A stretch of DNA of 64,000 nt, from contig JBOGNA010000110.1 in the NCBI GenBank assembly GCA_050746925.1, forward strand, positions 726 to 64,725, given 5' to 3'. The notes under the pieces are model-generated. The model did no database searches and was not told the DNA's origin. It was given only the letters and a program-made list of their open reading frames with translations. Below, piece after piece: positions 4,829-11,264 of this stretch. The position numbers and the translations under genes are program-made. The stretch is from Candidatus Acidiferrales bacterium (GTDB lineage Bacteria > Acidobacteriota > Terriglobia > Acidiferrales > UBA7541). Positions within the stretch are counted from its first letter, which is position 1. Every line of letters begins with the position of its first letter.

Positions 4829-5036
4829 AAAACTCGGCGGGAGACGGGATGACAAGAACTGCTCGGCAAGAGCGAGGAATCGAGGAAGCGAATCTGCGCG
4901 CGAATGCGCTGGCGGCGGAGAAAAAAGCATTAACTGGTTGGTGCGCGTTGCCTTGACAGTGGTGCGAGCGTCCGATAGCGTCGAAGAGCGCGTCACTCGC
5001 TGGAAGAATCGCACTTCATACGAATCGGAGCCTACG

Positions 5037-5837
5037 TTGGCACAGCACCGGCCCATCATCACTCTCACGACCGATTACGGCACCAACGACCATCTGGTTG
5101 GCGTCATGAAGGGCGTGATCCTCAGTATTAATCCGGAAGCGACGGTTGTGGACATTACGCACGGCGTGCTGGCGCACGACATTCTGGATGGCGCGTTGAC
5201 GATCGGGCAGGCGTACAACTATTTTCCGCCGCGAACGATTCATGTGGTGGTGGTGGACCCAGGGGTGGGAACCGCGCGGCGTCCGCTGCTGGTGGCGAGC
5301 GATCAGCACTATTTTGTGGCGCCGGATAACGGAGTGCTGTCGGCGGTGTACGACCAGACCGAAGCGCTCTATGCGTGGCACATTACCTCCGAGCATTATT
5401 TCCGCCAGCCCGTCAGCAATACGTTCCATGGGCGCGACGTGTTTGCACCGGTGGCGGCGTGGCTTTCGAAATCGTGGCAGACATCGGCGTTTGGAGACGC
5501 GGTGGAAGATTTGGCGCGCTTTGCGATACCGAAGCCCAAAGTGAACGGCAACACAATCAAGGCGATCGTGCTGAAGGTGGATAATTTCGGGAACCTGATC
5601 ACGAATTTGAAACTGGAGGATGCACCGGGGCTGGCGGAGGCGGAAGGAAAGTTTGCGATCCGCGTGGGAAATGGCGAGGTGAAAAAGATTTTGCCGACAT
5701 TTGCCGGCGGGGCGGCGGGAGAGGCGTTCGGCGTAATTGGGTCGAGCGGATACCTGGAGATTTCAGTGAATAAGGGAAATGCGGCGCGCGCGCTGGGCGT
5801 GGGGCGCGGGGCGGAAGTTACGGTGGAGCTGGGTTAG
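5037..5837 (+). CDS. SAM hydrolase / SAM-dependent halogenase family protein (DUF62)
   Basis: It contains IITLTTDYGTNDHLVGVMKGV...VVVVDPGVGT, characteristic of the family. TTG 5037 is preceded by GGAG. The ORF could also start at GTG 4938. Confidence 0.8.
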   Translation: MAQHRPIITLTTDYGTNDHLVGVMKGVILSINPEATVVDITHGVLAHDILDGALTIGQAYNYFPPRTIHVVVVDPGVGTARRPLLVASDQHYFVAPDNGVLSAVYDQTEALYAWHITSEHYFRQPVSNTFHGRDVFAPVAAWLSKSWQTSAFGDAVEDLARFAIPKPKVNGNTIKAIVLKVDNFGNLITNLKLEDAPGLAEAEGKFAIRVGNGEVKKILPTFAGGAAGEAFGVIGSSGYLEISVNKGNAARALGVGRGAEVTVELG

Positions 5838-5855
5838 CCACATCGGTCGGAGCTA

Positions 5856-6122
5856 TTAGCGCCGGAGCAGCCGAGCGACGAGCCAAGCGTACAGATAGCT
5901 CGCGAAGAATGTCAGGACGGCCAGATCCGCGATCCACCGAGGCTGGTCACTCCGCAAGTTCCGTAGAAGCATGAGTTCGGGAAGAATCAGCGTAGTCAGA
6001 AAATAAGCCGGCAGCTGGCGCCAGTCGCCGTAGCGAAATCCGGTAACCATGCACCACAGCGCGGCGAGTCGCGCGGCAGCAATCCAGGAACCGTACTTCC
6101 ACACTACGGGGTCCATTCGCAC
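5856..6122 (-). CDS. Small hypothetical membrane protein
   Basis: The 88-aa ORF has 2-3 hydrophobic helices. No family was recognised. Confidence 0.35.
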   Translation of the reverse strand: MRMDPVVWKYGSWIAAARLAALWCMVTGFRYGDWRQLPAYFLTTLILPELMLLRNLRSDQPRWIADLAVLTFFASYLYAWLVARLLRR

Positions 6123-6201
6123 GTTACCTCCCTCGCAGCAAGCTAACGGCTGACTCGGTATCGACTGCTACTTCCCCACCCACGACAGCGAGTAGGCCCG
6201 A

Positions 6202-6939
6202 TCACAGCGCCAGATCACGCAATTGCTTCGAGCCAGTTCGGCTGGCAACGATGCGTGCGCCGCTTTTCATAACCACCTGGACACGAGCGGTGTCGTAAAG
6301 ATCGATCGAAGTGATGTATTCGAGGTTAATCAGGTGGGAGCGGTGAATTCTCAAGAAATGTGCGTCCTTCAACTGCGCCTCGAGATCGGACAGCCGGACG
6401 CTAACGAGATATTGTTTCGCCGCGGTGAAAATTGTGACGTAATCATCGGCCCCTTGCACGCGTTCGAGGCTTGCGAGTGGAATGGGGAGAATGCGGTTGC
6501 CGTCACGAACGAAGATTCTGGAAAGTGCACGCGTGTGTTGCAGCGATTCTCTCGCCCGTGGGAGCAAGGGAACATCTGAGTCGTTTAATGCCTGCTGCGC
6601 GCGACGCACCACGCGTTCCAATCGGTCACGTCCAAAGGGCTTCAGAAGGTAATCGAGAGCGCCGAGTTCGAACGCGGTGACGGCGTACTGATCGTACGCG
6701 GTGGTGAAAATGACCTTGGGTTCGTATTCGAGCTGTTCGAGAACTTCCAAACCCGTTGCGCCGGGCATCACGATATCGAGAAAAATCAGATGAGGCCGCC
6801 GTTCATTGGCAATTGCAATCGCGGTATTGCCGTCGCGCGCTTCATGGATTTCGCCCGTCCAACCGAGGCCGAGGAGATGCTCGCGAAGCGTGCGTCGAGC
6901 AAGCGGCTCGTCGTCGGCGATCAGGACGGCATCGTTCAT
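6202..6939 (-). CDS. LytR/AlgR-family response regulator (REC + LytTR)
   Basis: The receiver domain has LIADDE...DIVMPG. The C-terminal LytTR domain has IHRSHLINL. There is a 4-nt overlap with the upstream kinase gene. Confidence 0.9.
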   Translation of the reverse strand: MNDAVLIADDEPLARRTLREHLLGLGWTGEIHEARDGNTAIAIANERRPHLIFLDIVMPGATGLEVLEQLEYEPKVIFTTAYDQYAVTAFELGALDYLLKPFGRDRLERVVRRAQQALNDSDVPLLPRARESLQHTRALSRIFVRDGNRILPIPLASLERVQGADDYVTIFTAAKQYLVSVRLSDLEAQLKDAHFLRIHRSHLINLEYITSIDLYDTARVQVVMKSGARIVASRTGSKQLRDLAL

Positions 6940-8102
6940 AGAGATTCACCGGTCACGGACTTCGCGGACCGAAAGCCTGCAGCGGCAGTGTCGCGGCGCG
7001 GTACGGATGAGTCTGCACCGAGTGGAACTTCGAAACTTGCTTCGAAGCCGCCGGGACCGCTTTTCACGCAGAGGCCGGCGGCGGAGCCGAAGGCGCCACG
7101 CAGGCGCTCGCGCAGCGAACGTAGCCCGAATTGATGCGATGAGCCGGCGGCAACATCAAGACGAGGGTCAACGCCTGCGTCAACGTCAGCGCCGGCGCCA
7201 GGTCCGTCATCTCGCACCGTTACGTTGAGTTTTCCATCGCGGCACGAGGAAATGATCCAGATCGAGCCGCCTTCAGGACGAACGGAAATCGCGTGGCGAA
7301 CGGCATTTTCCGCCAAGGTTTGCAGAGAAAACGGCGGAACGTCGAAGTGCACGGATTCCGGATCAATCTGCAGGCTGACTTTCAAGCGATCTTCATAGCG
7401 AAGTTGTTCGAAGACGATGTACTGGCGGGTGAAATCAAGCTCCTCGGAAAATTCCACCAATTCGCGGCCATCCTCTTTCAAGGTATAGCGAAGCATGTCG
7501 CCCAGGCGCTCGATGGCAACCTCGGAGATCGCGGGATGGAATTTCACCAGAGCAGCGAGGGTGTGGAGCGCGTTGAACAGAAAATGCGGGTTCAAGCGGG
7601 CGCGAATCGCGTCAAGGCGAGCCGAGGCTGCCAGCGCTTCCGCGCGCGCCGCGAGGGTTTCCTTTTCGTGCATGCGATTGCGCGTCTGCACGGCGTAGGA
7701 GACGCCGGCGAACAAGCCATAGAGCCAAAGTCCGGTGAGAAGTTGCCAGCCGAGAACGGGCGAGCGCCAGAAATCGTGGAGCGAGAGGTTTCCGCGGCGT
7801 ATCGAGTCGAGCCCATACACCGCGATCGTCAAAGCAATTGAGTACGCTAACGCAAAGACGATTTGCAGCAGATAGAACTTCAGACTGAGCCGAAGAGGCC
7901 ACGGTAATCGGCGGCACACATGCCAAACGGCGATTCCCAGCGCGCTCGCACTGCCCATCGAAATCATGCTGGCCGCAATGGCTGCCGGCAATTTGTAGTG
8001 CGCGTACGACATCGCGAATAACACCCAGATCGCGAAGAACGGCAGCCATGCCGCCAGGACGATCGCATAGCGCTGGATGGTCTTCGGCGTCATTTGGCGC
8101 AA
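6936..8102 (-). CDS. Sensor histidine kinase (LytS/YehU-like)
   Basis: It has a multi-TM N-terminus, a His_kinase motif LNPHFLFNALHTL and a C-terminal HATPase region. Confidence 0.85.
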   Translation of the reverse strand: MRQMTPKTIQRYAIVLAAWLPFFAIWVLFAMSYAHYKLPAAIAASMISMGSASALGIAVWHVCRRLPWPLRLSLKFYLLQIVFALAYSIALTIAVYGLDSIRRGNLSLHDFWRSPVLGWQLLTGLWLYGLFAGVSYAVQTRNRMHEKETLAARAEALAASARLDAIRARLNPHFLFNALHTLAALVKFHPAISEVAIERLGDMLRYTLKEDGRELVEFSEELDFTRQYIVFEQLRYEDRLKVSLQIDPESVHFDVPPFSLQTLAENAVRHAISVRPEGGSIWIISSCRDGKLNVTVRDDGPGAGADVDAGVDPRLDVAAGSSHQFGLRSLRERLRGAFGSAAGLCVKSGPGGFEASFEVPLGADSSVPRRDTAAAGFRSAKSVTGESL

Positions 8103-8221
8103 ATTATCGCAGTTTTTGACCTATTTCACCTCACGATTGACCGACTGATTCTGCCTGTTGGCCGAAAACTTGTGGCTCCGTTCCTAATCGCGGGCTAGTT
8201 TCGAGCGCAGAGGAGAAACAA

Positions 8222-9109
8222 GTGCGCCGAAAAAACATGCCAAGGATTGCGGCTCTACTGGTTATTTCAGCTGTAGCGATGGTCACAACAGCTGGCGGGA
8301 TGGCGGATCCTAAAGCGTCGAAAGTGGATTCCACGGTCCGCACATCGATCGTTAACGCGACGTCCGGCCTGTCGCACAAACAAGTGGCCGGGATCATCGT
8401 GCAAATACAGAGAGCCGATTATGAGGGTGATCGCGCAGCGTTGAAACGCCTGTATGACGAGCTTGCTCCTGAGGATAAGAACAAGGAACTGGCGGCGCGG
8501 GTGCGATACTGGCGCGGATTTGCTCTGTGGCGGAGAGCGATCAACGGCTTTAACGACAATACGGACCCGCAGGAGTTAGGAGCGGATTTGAAACAGGCGT
8601 GGGAGGAATTCAACGAGTCGACGAATATCGAACCGAATTTCGTGGAGGCGAAGATTGGGGCGATGTCGTGCGTGGGTCTTCTGGCATTCTCGATAAAAGA
8701 GAAAGACCCTGCCAGGATACAGGAACTAATCGTCCAAGCCAGACAACTGCGCAAGGAAATCGACGCCGCAGCTCCAGACAATCCTCGCTACCTCTGGGTG
8801 TGGGGACCGAGTCTGTGGTATGTCCCGGCGGAGCGTGGCGGCGGCCAAGAAAAAGCACTGGCGACGTATGACAAGGGCTTGGCGATGATACGGACGCACA
8901 AGGGCGCGACGAGCGATCCGCTCGAGCCAACGTGGGGAGAGCCCGAGCTGTTGATGAGCCTTGCATGGTCGAACCTGAATCGGAGTACGCCGGACTTGAA
9001 TGCGGCCGAGCAAAATGCACGTGCCGCCCTGGCGATAGTTCCCTACTGGCATTACGTGAGGGATATTTTGCTGCCGCAAATCGAGGATGCGCAGAAAAAA
9101 AAGAACTAG
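8222..9109 (+). CDS. Secreted hypothetical protein
   Basis: AGGAG lies upstream of GTG 8222. The signal peptide is AALLVISAVAMVTTAGGMA, and the mature part is helical and repeat-like. Confidence 0.6.
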   Translation: MRRKNMPRIAALLVISAVAMVTTAGGMADPKASKVDSTVRTSIVNATSGLSHKQVAGIIVQIQRADYEGDRAALKRLYDELAPEDKNKELAARVRYWRGFALWRRAINGFNDNTDPQELGADLKQAWEEFNESTNIEPNFVEAKIGAMSCVGLLAFSIKEKDPARIQELIVQARQLRKEIDAAAPDNPRYLWVWGPSLWYVPAERGGGQEKALATYDKGLAMIRTHKGATSDPLEPTWGEPELLMSLAWSNLNRSTPDLNAAEQNARAALAIVPYWHYVRDILLPQIEDAQKKKN

Positions 9110-9207
9110 AAACGCTCTCCGCGAGACAAGAACCGACCGACTGTGTTCATTCCATGCGTGACGCCGTCGCTCTCGTGCCTTAGAACCAGCGAAAGCACCT
9201 CTACTGC

Positions 9208-9529
9208 TTAACGCGCGAGGGTGGTGACAATCAAGTAGGCGCGCATGCGCGGGTCGAGCCAGTCGCGGAGGGCGTCGCCGAGGAGATTGAAGGCTAGGAC
9301 CGCGGTCATTACGGCGAGGGCTGGGAAGATTACCAGGTGCGGCGCGTCGAAAAGGTGGCTGCGGGCGTCGTTGAGCATGGCGCCCCAGCTGGGCATGGGG
9401 GCGAGGACGCCTACACCTAGGAAGCTGAGTGTCGATTCGGCGAGGATTGCGCCGGCCATTGCGATTGTAGCTTGAACGAGCACTGGCTGAAGAATATTGG
9501 GCAGCAGGTGGCGGATCACGATGCGCGCG
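9208..9529 (-). pseudogene. 3' fragment (last ~107 codons) of a second DppC/OppC-type permease allele
   Basis: It aligns without gaps to 10215-10536. By hand count there are about 27 nt differences, which give an identical peptide except for one residue. There is no 5' part of the gene. Confidence 0.8.
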
Positions 9530-9569
9530 CGCTGGGCGCGGGGCGGAAGTTTCGGTGAAGCTGGGTTAG
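9523..9569 (+). repeat. Duplicated, decayed copy of the 3' end of the SAM-hydrolase gene (compare 5784-5837)
   Basis: GCGCGCGCGCTGGGCG...CGGGGCGGAAGTTtCGGTGaAGCTGGGTTAG matches 5784-5837 with 2 substitutions and a 7-nt deletion. Confidence 0.7.
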
Positions 9570-10108
9570 GTTCGCTGCAAGCGGCGCCCGCGGTCATGGA
9601 AACCCCGAAGTCGCGCGGAACTCCTCGATTCATTTTCAACTGAAGTTTGCTGCGCGAAGAAAGCGTGCCAGCGTCCCTTCTCCCAGAGGTAGTAATCCGC
9701 GTATCGAGTCGTTCGCGTCCTTCCGTCAGAACCCGTCGAATGCGATGTTCCATAAGCGACGGCTACGTCCCCGTGCAGAAGAACCGTGGCTTCGGGCAAG
9801 TCTGGTGTCGGCAGATTCTTCCCCCGATTCTTCATCGCCAGCGCGAGCTCATCAGCCAGGAATTTGATCTCACCGGTCCGCATGATTTCGGTGAAGTCCG
9901 GGGCGAGAAGGCAGCGTTCGAAATCCATGTCGGCATGCAGATAGGCGATCGTCCAGGCGTTCTCGAGGCGCTGAATCGTCGCGCCGTCGCGGCGCTGATT
10001 CAGGAGGGGAGCCTGCTGGCATCTATCCTCATCCTGCGCGTGCAGAGGCACCGAGAAAAACGAGACGAGTAGCGTCGAGAAAAGCAATTGCATTCCGACT
10101 TGGCGCAT
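9566..10108 (-). CDS. Secreted DUF4440/SnoaL-like (NTF2 fold) protein
   Basis: The signal peptide is LLFSTLLVSFFSVPLHAQ. The NTF2-like pattern includes LENAWTIAYLHADMDF...YYLWEKGRWH. Confidence 0.7.
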   Translation of the reverse strand: MRQVGMQLLFSTLLVSFFSVPLHAQDEDRCQQAPLLNQRRDGATIQRLENAWTIAYLHADMDFERCLLAPDFTEIMRTGEIKFLADELALAMKNRGKNLPTPDLPEATVLLHGDVAVAYGTSHSTGSDGRTRTTRYADYYLWEKGRWHAFFAQQTSVENESRSSARLRGFHDRGRRLQRT

Positions 10109-10214
10109 CTTCGAGTCCTTTCGCCGCCGAAGAAACCCACCGACGCTTCAGCGTCTCCCAGATTGACGTCCTTAGACTGTTGTCGTGAGCCATTAAATGG
10201 ACGCGCCGCGAACA

Positions 10215-11087
10215 CTAGCGCACGAGCGTTGTAACTATCAGGTACGCGCGCATGCGAGGGTCGAGCCAGTCGCGGAGGGCGTCGCCGAGGAGATTGAAGG
10301 CGAGGACCGCGGTCATTACGGCGAGGGCTGGGAAGATGACCAGGTGTGGGGCGTCGAACAGGTGGCTGCGGGCGTCGTTGAGCATGGCGCCCCAGCTGGG
10401 CATCGGAGCGAGAACGCCGACGCCGAGAAAGCTGAGAGTGGATTCGGCGAGGATGGCGCCGGCCATCGCGATTGTAGCTTGAACGAGCACTGGCTGAAGT
10501 ATATTGGGCAGCAGGTGGCGGATCACGATGCGCGCGTCGCTGGCGCCGAGAGAGCGGGCGGCTAGGACGTATTCCATTTCTTTGGCTTGCAGGATTTGAG
10601 CGCGGGCGAGGCGGGCGTAGCCGGCCCAACCGGTGATGACGAGAGCGAGAATGACTTTGCCGAGGCCAGGCCCGAGAAATGCGGCGAAGGCGATGGCGAG
10701 CAGGATTCCCGGAAAGGAGAGAAATGCGTTGATGAGGACGACGTTGATGAGCCGGTCGAACCAGCCGCCGAAGTAGCCTGCCAGCGCACCGATTGCGAGG
10801 CCGATAAGCCCTGCACCCAACACTACGCTGATGCTGACTAGCATGGAGACTCGCGCGCCGAAGAGAATGCGCGAGAGGATGTCGCGGCCGAGCTGGTCGG
10901 TGCCCATCCAGTGTGCGGAGCTGGGTGCGGCGAGGCGCGCCGGGAGATTTTGCGCGATCGGGTTGTAGGGAGCGAGCCACGGGGCGGCGAGGGCGGCGAT
11001 TACGAGGATTGAGGTGAGTGCGAGGCCGACGCGGCCTGGGGTGCTGTGTCGTAGGAAGTCACGGAGGCCGCTGGTAAGCGTAGTCAT
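10215..11087 (-). CDS. ABC transporter permease, DppC/OppC family
   Basis: It has BPD_transp_1 features, including the EAA-like motif (AARSLGASDARIVIRHLLPN). ATG 11087 gives about 290 aa. The longer ORF-track start is Arg-rich and non-homologous. Confidence 0.85.
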   Translation of the reverse strand: MTTLTSGLRDFLRHSTPGRVGLALTSILVIAALAAPWLAPYNPIAQNLPARLAAPSSAHWMGTDQLGRDILSRILFGARVSMLVSISVVLGAGLIGLAIGALAGYFGGWFDRLINVVLINAFLSFPGILLAIAFAAFLGPGLGKVILALVITGWAGYARLARAQILQAKEMEYVLAARSLGASDARIVIRHLLPNILQPVLVQATIAMAGAILAESTLSFLGVGVLAPMPSWGAMLNDARSHLFDAPHLVIFPALAVMTAVLAFNLLGDALRDWLDPRMRAYLIVTTLVR

Positions 11088-11244
11088 CGCGGGCACCGCC
11101 AAAGACGGACGAGAGATTCCTCGACTGCGTCCCCCGCCTTCGTCCCGCAAACGCGACCGGGACGCACGAATCGCGCTTCGCGAAGGAAATGCAAATGCGC
11201 TGGGGACTTCGCTCGGGATGACAGGGTGCGGAGTGTGCTTGAGA

Positions 11245-11264
11245 GGGCGCGGCATGCCGTGCCC
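11245..11264. repeat. Near-perfect palindrome GGGCGCGGCATGCCGTGCCC (REP-like, second copy)
   Basis: It has one mismatch relative to 1918-1937 and the same TGAGAG flank. It lies in the 232-bp gap between the two permease genes. Confidence 0.7.

What the first reader, a model, noticed from the sequence alone, without database searches (positions are those of the whole stretch)
9208..9569. Recombination scar: 3' fragment of a divergent dppC allele joined at microhomology to a duplicated 3' end of the SAM-hydrolase gene
Positions 9208-9529 align gap-free with the 3' end of the intact permease gene (10215-10536). By hand count there are about 27 nt differences in 107 codons. Of these, 25 are synonymous, 1 is non-synonymous (penultimate Ala/Val) and 1 is TAA versus TAG. 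The fragment therefore diverged under purifying selection as part of a functional gene, presumably in another lineage, and was truncated only recently. At about 9523-9536 the homology switches, across a GCGCGCG-rich microhomology, to a copy of the last ~50 nt of the SAM-hydrolase gene (5784-5837; 2 substitutions and a 7-nt deletion, ending in the same CTGGGTTAG). This pattern is what homology-facilitated illegitimate recombination would leave. One crossover would lie in the SAM-hydrolase gene and one illegitimate joint inside the donor's dppC, inserting donor DNA between the two.
Basis: partly seen in the sequence, partly recalled or inferred. Interest (0 to 1): 0.6.

Follow-up and report, generated by a model that had tools for sequence, protein, structure and literature searches.

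The report
Recombination scar stacking two locus alleles
A 362-base leftover made of the tail ends of two neighbouring genes marks where DNA from a related species was spliced into this cave acidobacterium's chromosome; it is a clean but ordinary example of gene gain without a mobile element.

Summary
Positions 9208-9529 are a gap-free copy of the last 107 codons of the intact permease gene (10215-10536). There are 27 differences: 25 synonymous, one Ala/Val and one TAA/TAG (dN 0.004, dS 0.38). Positions 9523-9569 copy the last 54 nt of the SAM-hydrolase gene, with 2 substitutions and one 7-nt repeat unit lost. The two homologies overlap in GCGCGCG (9523-9529).

Independent per-run contigs from three metagenome runs cross the joint, and both permease versions occur at equal depth. 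This makes a mis-assembly unlikely.

In nearly all of the 80 related Acidiferrales genomes, dppC and the SAM-hydrolase gene converge on a short, variable spacer. The three closest carry DUF4440 there. None carries the LytTR regulator/kinase/secreted-protein block, and none has a second dppC piece.

The window therefore holds two alleles of one variable locus, joined head to tail. One illegitimate microhomology joint plus one homologous exchange with DNA from a sister species explains it. Homology-facilitated illegitimate recombination is the simplest route.

It cannot be told which allele was the import. No donor was found in any database searched. This is a neat natural example of a known process, of modest interest.

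The parts
4938..5837 (+). Intact SAM hydroxide adenosyltransferase (SAM-hydrolase) gene, the conserved left flank of the variable locus
   Evidence: Pfam SAM_HAT_N 1.9e-54 and SAM_HAT_C 2e-20. It is convergent with dppC in nearly all of the 80 relatives.
5784..5837 (+). Functional copy of the duplicated SAM-hydrolase 3' end (encodes ..GAEVTVELG*)
   Evidence: Aligned to 9523-9569. Its C-terminal peptide is the conserved state in the 8 relatives aligned (6 end ..VTVELG*, 2 ..VTVELS*).
5838..9207 (.). Cargo of allele 1. It holds an 88-aa membrane ORF (5856-6122, -), a LytTR response regulator (6202-6939, -), a His_kinase-type sensor kinase (6936-8102, -) and a 295-aa secreted helical-repeat protein (8222-9109, +).
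   Evidence: Pfam hits. The block is absent from this locus in all 80 relatives. The regulator-kinase-secreted-protein trio is a conserved module in soil acidobacterial metagenome contigs, never next to dppC. No transposase or integrase is present.
9208..9529 (-). dppC' fragment: the last 106 codons plus stop of a second, diverged dppC allele, truncated at its 5' side
   Evidence: Gap-free alignment to 10215-10536 with 27 differences, dN 0.004 and dS 0.38. It has no amino-acid change of its own. It is sister to the intact copy with UFBoot 99.
9523..9529 (.). Illegitimate joint: 7-nt GC-only microhomology (GCGCGCG) shared by the two homologies
   Evidence: dppC homology runs to 9529 and SAM-hydrolase homology starts at 9523. 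Contigs from three runs cross it.
9523..9569 (+). SAM-hydrolase' fragment: the last 47 nt of a SAM-hydrolase gene. It has 2 substitutions that are both nonsynonymous (T->S, E->K) and has lost one 7-nt tandem unit.
   Evidence: Its TAG (9567-9569) overlaps the TAA of DUF4440 (9566-9568, minus strand).
9566..10108 (-). DUF4440 gene, the cargo of allele 2
   Evidence: Pfam DUF4440 1.5e-07. Orthologues lie in the same place in L002, L004 and L005 at 68-70% amino-acid identity. The window's copy has a 22-aa C-terminal extension.
10215..11255 (-). Intact dppC/oppC-type ABC permease gene, the conserved right flank. Its 3' end (10215-10536) is the counterpart of the fragment.
   Evidence: Pfam BPD_transp_1 1.3e-32 and OppC_N. 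It is 94% identical in protein to the nearest relatives. Close homologues are 286 aa, so the real start is probably about 60 codons inside this ORF.

Best explanation
The 362 bases are a functionless scar. In this order of Acidobacteriota (Acidiferrales), dppC and the SAM-hydrolase gene converge on a spacer whose content differs from lineage to lineage. The window's lineage carries two versions of that locus in series:
- SAM-hydrolase, then the regulator/kinase/secreted-protein block, then the dppC tail;
- then the SAM-hydrolase tail, then DUF4440, then dppC.

This arose when DNA from a sister species with the other version entered the cell. It paired by ordinary homologous recombination in one conserved flank. 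At its other end it was joined illegitimately at the 7-nt microhomology GCGCGCG, between codon -107 of one dppC and base -47 of one SAM-hydrolase gene. This is homology-facilitated illegitimate recombination (HFIR).

The result added one cargo beside the other instead of replacing it, and left the two truncated gene tails at the joint.

Shown:
- the structure and the joint;
- the purifying-selection history of the dppC tail;
- the conserved flanks and the variable spacer;
- the absence of the structure in relatives.

Inferred:
- that it was a single event;
- the use of one homologous anchor;
- the route of DNA entry.

I slightly favour import of the 3.7-kb block anchored in the SAM-hydrolase gene (about 45%). 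The alternative is import of the 1.0-kb DUF4440 unit anchored in dppC (about 30%). The data do not decide between them.
For: - Exact anatomy of the two homologies and their 7-nt overlap.
- dN 0.004 and dS 0.38. All roughly 8 changes assignable to the fragment's own branch are synonymous (P about 2e-5 if neutral). The fragment keeps the ancestral Ala105.
- Fragment and intact copy are sister sequences (UFBoot 99). Their dS of 0.38 exceeds the 0.16-0.22 between the distinct GTDB species L002, L004 and L005. The two sources were therefore different species of one clade.
- The order CNNM-dppB-dppC> <SAM-hydrolase is conserved in nearly all of the 80 relatives. In the 73 that have both genes the spacer runs from -1 to 2342 nt (median 145). 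Its cargo varies: DUF4440, a DDE transposase, GNAT, SPFH and SUKH-1. One further relative (L156) has a TonB-like gene downstream of dppC.
- DUF4440 sits at this place in the three closest relatives.
- No second dppC piece occurs in any relative.
- The block has no transposase or integrase, and no terminal inverted repeats were found.
- The joint and both copies are present at equal depth in three runs.
- In HFIR as described, the illegitimate junction carries a 3-10 bp microhomology in most cases (PMC3240628).
Against: - No donor or un-inserted recipient genome was found. The nearest homologue of the secreted protein is 72% identical and sits in other contexts. The nearest dppC DNA is 89% identical.
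- Classical HFIR usually deletes recipient DNA (PMC3240628). Here 47 nt (or 322 nt) are duplicated instead.
- The differences between the two dppC tails are unevenly spread. There are 2 in the 80 nt next to the joint against about 9 expected, chi-square p 0.003. Tract-length permutation gives only p 0.25. This hints at an exchange inside the fragment or later gene conversion, which a plain one-step model does not predict.
- The SAM-hydrolase tail has 2 substitutions, both nonsynonymous, in 36 nt. The dppC tail has none in about 235 nonsynonymous sites (conditional P about 0.018).
Confidence: 0.7

Rival explanations
1. Two-step route. First, a microhomology-mediated tandem duplication of the spacer unit (SAM-hydrolase -47 to dppC -322, 1007 bp) occurs within one genome. 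Then ordinary double homologous recombination with a diverged donor replaces the cargo of the left copy. The full SAM-hydrolase gene and the 322-nt dppC tail serve as the homology arms.
For: - The joint has exactly the topology of a tandem-duplication junction.
- Differences between the two dppC tails are depleted in the 80 nt next to the joint (2 against about 9 expected). That is expected if the right-hand crossover fell inside the fragment.
- Both steps are individually common processes (established knowledge).
Against: - It needs two events. The intermediate, a perfect 1-kb direct repeat, is unstable.
- Differences at gene positions 36 and 69 lie within the supposedly unconverted part.
- The permutation test for a long identical tract is not significant (p 0.25).
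Confidence: 0.12
2. Circle integration. A linear fragment from the other allele circularised at the GCGCGCG microhomology. The likeliest candidate is the 1007-bp unit of SAM-hydrolase tail, DUF4440 and dppC tail. It then integrated by a single Campbell-type crossover within the 322-nt dppC homology.
For: - The repeat period is exactly 1007 bp, and the product order matches.
- Circularisation followed by a single crossover is a documented fate of incoming linear DNA in E. coli (PMC3240628).
- Heteroduplex repair during the crossover could give the patchy identity.
Against: - It requires end-joining of a linear fragment plus recombination across 8% divergence in only 322 nt.
- There is no independent sign of it, and its product cannot be told from that of HFIR.
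Confidence: 0.08
3. Old paralogy. A large segmental duplication gave two full working copies of the region. They diverged under selection in the same genome, and a later microhomology-mediated deletion removed everything from dppC(1) -322 to SAM-hydrolase(2) -47.
For: - Simple deletions at GC-rich microhomologies are common (established knowledge).
- The purifying-selection signature only requires that the fragment was once part of a working gene.
Against: - No relative among 80 has any second copy of dppC, dppB, CNNM or the SAM-hydrolase gene within 10 kb.
- The two copies are sister to the exclusion of all sampled species. The duplication would therefore be lineage-specific, yet maintained for longer than the split between GTDB species (dS 0.38 against 0.16-0.22).
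Confidence: 0.04
4. Assembly artefact. Two co-occurring strains with different alleles were stitched together by the assembler.
For: - The window comes from a metagenome.
- A relative at about 87% identity co-occurs in run X2.
- The two dppC tails share exact stretches of 32-44 nt that break de Bruijn unitigs, so phasing inside the fragment rests on the original assembler.
Against: - The junction sequence itself (dppC bases fused to a mutated SAM-hydrolase tail) exists in no parental gene. It is nevertheless present as error-free contigs in three separate runs at the genome's depth (11.1, 14.8 and 11.5).
- X1's contig links the fragment-specific base 9493A through the joint into DUF4440 and the intact copy.
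- The block, both tail types and the flanks co-vary about 1:1 in depth across the three runs.
- A 7-nt overlap is far below any assembler's k.
Confidence: 0.02

Closest known systems
Homology-facilitated illegitimate recombination (HFIR), described for natural transformation of Acinetobacter baylyi, Streptococcus pneumoniae and Pseudomonas stutzeri and for conjugation in E. coli (summarised in PMC3240628)
   Same: Foreign DNA is inserted next to a conserved gene that can serve as a homologous anchor. The other end is joined at a short GC-rich microhomology (7 nt here; 3-10 bp is typical). No mobile-element genes are involved.
   Different: This is a natural event in an uncultivated acidobacterium, inferred from sequence only. 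The recipient shows a short duplication (47 or 322 nt) instead of the usual deletion. The 'foreign' end is itself homologous to a gene 0.7 kb further on, so a normal allele replacement was narrowly missed.
Orphan-module arrays at T6SS effector-immunity, Rhs and CDI loci, proposed to grow by displacement through HFIR (Kirchberger et al. 2017, PMC5361080)
   Same: A new module enters by homology in a conserved flank. The old module is kept and shifted downstream, leaving orphaned 3' gene pieces, so alleles are stacked rather than replaced.
   Different: No toxin or immunity genes are involved. The cargo is a two-component system with a secreted protein, and a DUF4440 gene. There is a single stacking step, and the orphaned pieces come from both flanking housekeeping genes.
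Microhomology-mediated tandem duplication
   Same: The junction topology is the same: the end of the unit is joined to its beginning at a few shared bases.
   Different: The two units carry different genes, and their shared ends differ by 8.4%, almost all at synonymous sites. A duplication alone cannot explain this.

Membership tests
HFIR product | Illegitimate junction at a short (3-10 bp) microhomology between sequences that are otherwise unrelated | tested here: met
   GCGCGCG at 9523-9529 is shared by the dppC homology (which ends at 9529) and the SAM-hydrolase homology (which starts at 9523). The criterion is taken from PMC3240628.
HFIR product | The inserted DNA is of foreign (diverged) origin | tested here: met
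   The dppC tail differs from the resident copy by dS 0.38 with dN about 0. This exceeds the divergence between GTDB species L002, L004 and L005. The block is absent from this locus in 80 relatives.
HFIR product | A homologous crossover (anchor) on one side only | tested here: inconclusive
   Conserved genes that could serve as anchors flank both sides. Without a donor or a conspecific genome, no crossover point can be located.
HFIR product | Accompanying deletion of recipient DNA (usual, not obligatory) | tested here: not met
   There is no loss: both flanking genes are intact. Instead, 47 nt of the SAM-hydrolase gene and 322 nt of dppC are present twice.
HFIR product | RecA dependence and entry of linear DNA by transformation or conjugation | not testable with these tools
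   This needs genetics.
Mobile-element insertion (IS, transposon or integrase island) | Transposase or integrase gene, terminal inverted repeats or att sites, and a short exact target-site duplication | tested here: not met
   The four block ORFs are an 88-aa ORF, a LytTR regulator, a His_kinase and a secreted protein. There are no inverted repeats at 5838/9529. The flanking direct repeat is a 47-54 nt imperfect piece of a gene.
Simple paralogy (second dpp operon) | A full-length second dppC in this genome or in relatives | tested here: not met
   The copy stops at codon -107. No relative has a second copy within 10 kb. The window's whole genome could not be searched.

The most novel reading that the evidence does not exclude
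The dppC tail may not be a dead scar. It lies directly downstream of DUF4440 on the same strand, inside an open 181-codon frame (9753-9208). It has not one amino-acid change of its own, while the 36-nt SAM-hydrolase tail beside it has two plus a frameshifting deletion. It could be kept intact by recurrent gene conversion with the working copy 1 kb away. It could also be expressed as a three-helix half-permease, or serve as a standing homology arm for further cargo swaps at this hotspot.
Probability: 0.06. Interest if true: 0.5.

Novelty: new member of a known kind. Interest (0 to 1): 0.3.

Why it matters
The scar is an unusually legible natural record of how a chromosomal hotspot gains genes without any mobile-element machinery. 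Two alleles of one variable locus were stacked by a homologous exchange plus a 7-nt illegitimate joint, using DNA from a different species of the same clade.

It gives sequence-level evidence for inter-species DNA exchange in uncultivated Acidiferrales (Acidobacteriota), a group with no genetic system. It also shows that a LytTR two-component module with its secreted partner travelled as one unit.

It does not reveal a new mechanism or open a new question.

Tried and rejected
A second dpp operon elsewhere in the genome, and competence genes, could therefore not be checked.
- Donor hunt, which found no donor:
  - Exact look-up of the secreted protein found only the same three cave runs.
  - A metagenome scan found 69 homologues at 75% identity or less, and 65% or less over long alignments. 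None was next to dppC.
  - A protein search found a nearest homologue at 72%, in unrelated contexts.
  - The nearest DppC proteins are 93-95% identical. The best candidate (L156) is 89.4% identical in DNA to the fragment, which is less than the 91.6% between the two window copies.
- Run searches with the flank and with the block gave the same three runs. No conspecific population without the insertion is indexed.
- GC and GC3 of the block are not anomalous. That is as expected for a close donor, so composition cannot give the direction.
- The promoter and terminator scan found nothing above the shuffled expectation. The in-frame start codons upstream of the fragment have no evident ribosome-binding site.
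- A mosaic or gene-conversion test gave mixed results: binned chi-square p 0.003, longest identical tract p 0.25, runs at third positions p 0.02. I treat this as suggestive only. The split into 'divergent' and 'similar' patches was made after seeing the data.
- The de Vries & Wackernagel 2002 paper (PMC122324) is not held. HFIR properties are cited from PMC3240628 instead.

Full report
**The observation**

Reading the sequence and comparing it with itself shows that 9208-9529 matches 10215-10536 without a gap. Similarity begins exactly at the stop codon; the 58 bases outside it are unrelated. It ends at 9529/10536.

On the minus strand both stretches encode the last 106 residues of a DppC/OppC-type ABC permease. 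The 27 differences fall 1, 1 and 25 on codon positions 1, 2 and 3. Of these, 25 are synonymous, one is Ala/Val at the penultimate codon and one is TAA/TAG. NG86 gives dN 0.0043 and dS 0.382. The chance of at least 25 of 26 changes being synonymous, if they fell at random, is 6e-14.

From 9523 the sequence instead matches the last 54 nt of the SAM hydroxide adenosyltransferase gene (5784-5837), with 2 substitutions and a 7-nt gap. The gap-free 36-mer recurs nowhere else in the window, and no shuffle produced a second match.

The two homologies overlap in GCGCGCG (9523-9529).

Two details can be added:
- The missing 7 nt are one unit of an imperfect tandem repeat (GGGCGTG GGGCGCG GGGCGGA), so they look like slippage.
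- The overlap lies in a longer chance resemblance between the two genes: GCGCGCG-T-CGCTGG-CG in dppC against GCGCGCG-CGCTGG-G-CG in the SAM-hydrolase gene.

**Is it an assembly artefact?**

The window is held by three cave-metagenome runs of one study. Logan's independent per-run contigs cross the joint with no differences: X1 9461-10287, X2 9500-10287 and X3 9500-10038. X2 also has one 3837-nt contig running from the SAM-hydrolase gene through the whole block into the fragment (5444-9280).

In each run both the fragment-type and the intact-type 124-nt unitigs are present at similar depth: 8.9/7.7, 9.8/6.9 and 11.2/11.5. The junction sequence exists in no parental gene, so it cannot come from mixing strains.

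Unitigs break where the two copies share 31 or more identical bases. The phase of variants inside the fragment therefore rests on the original assembler. This does not affect the existence of two copies or of the joint.

**Genes**

Pfam identifies, in order:
- SAM-hydrolase (4938-5837, +);
- an 88-aa membrane ORF (5856-6122, -);
- a LytTR response regulator (6202-6939, -);
- a His_kinase-type sensor (6936-8102, -);
- a 295-aa secreted protein with no Pfam hit (8222-9109, +);
- the dppC fragment;
- the SAM-hydrolase fragment;
- DUF4440 (9566-10108, -);
- dppC (10215-11255, -), dppB and a CNNM transporter.

No transposase or integrase is present, and no inverted repeats bound the block.

**Relatives**

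A scan of one genome per species with DppC returned 80 loci. Nearly all are labelled Acidobacteriota or Candidatus Acidiferrales MAGs.

The order CNNM-dppB-dppC> <SAM-hydrolase-desulfurase-MnmA is conserved in nearly all of them. In 73 loci with both genes, the distance between the two stop codons is -1 to 2342 nt, with a median of 145. In the window it is 4377 nt.

The content of this spacer varies:
- DUF4440 in the three closest relatives (L002, L004, L005);
- a DDE transposase in L046;
- a GNAT acetyltransferase in L026;
- an SPFH protein in L048 and apparently in its close relatives L025, L039 and L050, which have a spacer of the same size (only L048 was scanned);
- a SUKH-1 protein in L036.

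In a metagenome contig (L156) that ends before any SAM-hydrolase gene, a TonB-like gene lies downstream of dppC.

No relative has the regulator/kinase/secreted-protein block here. None has a second dppC piece; the only second hits are the dppB paralogue.

The block's regulator-kinase-secreted-protein trio does recur as a unit in soil acidobacterial metagenome contigs. Identities are 73-83% for the regulator, 64-77% for the kinase and 48-62% for the secreted protein. It is never beside dppC.

**History of the fragment**

The fragment and the intact copy are each other's nearest sequences, at 91.6% identity against 79-89% to relatives. A maximum-likelihood tree of 81 sequences separates the pair from all others with UFBoot 99.

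Their dS of 0.38 exceeds that between the separate GTDB species L002, L004 and L005 (0.16-0.22). The two sources were therefore different species within one clade that is not otherwise sampled.

Polarising the differences with ten outgroups gives three results:
- The fragment keeps the ancestral Ala105, while the intact gene has the derived Val.
- The fragment has no amino-acid change of its own.
- The roughly 8 changes assignable to its branch are all synonymous (P about 2e-5 if neutral).

It therefore spent nearly all of its separate history inside a working gene and was truncated recently.

The SAM-hydrolase tail, by contrast, carries two substitutions that are both nonsynonymous (..VSVKLG*). 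None of the 8 relatives aligned shares them: 6 end ..VTVELG* and 2 end ..VTVELS*. It also has the 7-nt loss.

**Mechanism**

The locus reads as allele 1 (SAM-hydrolase, block, dppC tail) followed by allele 2 (SAM-hydrolase tail, DUF4440, dppC). The two are joined at a 7-nt microhomology. Any route needs one illegitimate joint and one homologous exchange with DNA of a diverged relative.

The most economical route is HFIR. In HFIR, one end of incoming linear DNA recombines homologously and the other is joined at a 3-10 bp microhomology (PMC3240628). The same idea was proposed for orphan-gene arrays at T6SS, Rhs and CDI loci (PMC5361080).

Two mirror-image versions give the identical product. Or the 1.0-kb DUF4440 unit came in, anchored in dppC.

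Two further routes also give the same structure:
- a 1007-bp circle closed at the microhomology and integrated by a single crossover in the dppC tail;
- a tandem duplication followed by allele replacement.

Unlike typical laboratory HFIR products, nothing was deleted. Instead, 47 or 322 nt are duplicated.

Composition does not help with direction. No donor, and no conspecific genome without the scar, could be found. The direction therefore stays open.

**Loose ends**

- The differences between the two dppC tails are unevenly spread. There are 2 in the 80 nt next to the joint against about 9 expected from the relatives' variability profile (chi-square p 0.003). Permutation of identical-tract length is not significant (p 0.25), and runs at third positions give p 0.02. 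This could reflect a crossover or heteroduplex repair inside the fragment, later gene conversion between the copies, or noise.
- The contrast between the mutated SAM-hydrolase tail and the pristine dppC tail (conditional P about 0.018) is also unexplained. The changes may have been made at the joint, may be native to the source lineage, or may mean that the dppC tail is being refreshed by conversion.
- The fragment lies downstream of DUF4440 on the same strand, inside an open 181-codon frame. No start site with an evident ribosome-binding site was seen.

**Verdict**

The interpretation as a recombination scar of the HFIR type is supported, with the direction unresolved. It is a new, clean natural instance of a known process in an uncultivated lineage, of modest interest.

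Noticed in passing
window 5838-10214; loci L001-L080 between dppC and the SAM-hydrolase gene: The spacer between the convergent dppC and SAM-hydrolase genes is a gene-cargo hotspot across Acidiferrales. In 73 relatives it runs from -1 to 2342 nt (median 145). Its genes include DUF4440, a DDE transposase, GNAT, SPFH/Band 7 and SUKH-1. In the metagenome contig L156 a TonB-like gene lies downstream of dppC. The window's 4377 nt is the largest.
   Followed up: partly
window 9566-9635 (minus strand): The window's DUF4440 protein has a 22-residue C-terminal extension (..SVENESRSSARLRGFHDRGRRLQRT*). Orthologues in L002, L004 and L005 end ..SVEK*. Its stop codon overlaps the TAG of the SAM-hydrolase fragment.
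   Followed up: no
window 11076-11255 (minus strand): Nearly all listed close DppC homologues are 286 aa (a few up to 333), and most begin MNAIRNF... The 346-aa ORF starting at 11255 is probably over-extended by about 60 codons. That would leave a spacer of about 240 nt after dppB.
   Followed up: no
window 11143-11202: In all three runs one contig, at a depth close to the genome's, replaces these 60 nt of the palindrome-bearing dppB-dppC spacer with 26 other letters (CTTCGCGAAGGAAGAGAGAAGCGCGC). This is a population variant or an assembly difference (tables 5 and 5c).
   Followed up: no
run X2, laid on window 5721-5837 and 9230-9280 / 10278-10956: A co-occurring relative is present at about 87% identity and about twice the depth, on a 63-kb contig. 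Another contig of similar depth carries a SAM-hydrolase 3' end and a dppC 3' end without the block. It shares the base 9493A with the fragment but is too distant to be the donor.
   Followed up: partly
L008 11897-12787; L032 11604-12405: The SAM-hydrolase gene of these two relatives comes back as overlapping pieces in different frames. This suggests a frameshift or pseudogene.
   Followed up: no
window 6202-9109; loci L088-L092, L105, L111, L112, L118, L120, L121, L123, L142: The arrangement <LytTR regulator <His_kinase secreted-helical-protein> is a conserved three-gene module in soil acidobacterial contigs. The secreted protein family is large, with more than 3200 homologues at E<=1e-30. It has no Pfam model, and some sources label it TPR.
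   Followed up: partly
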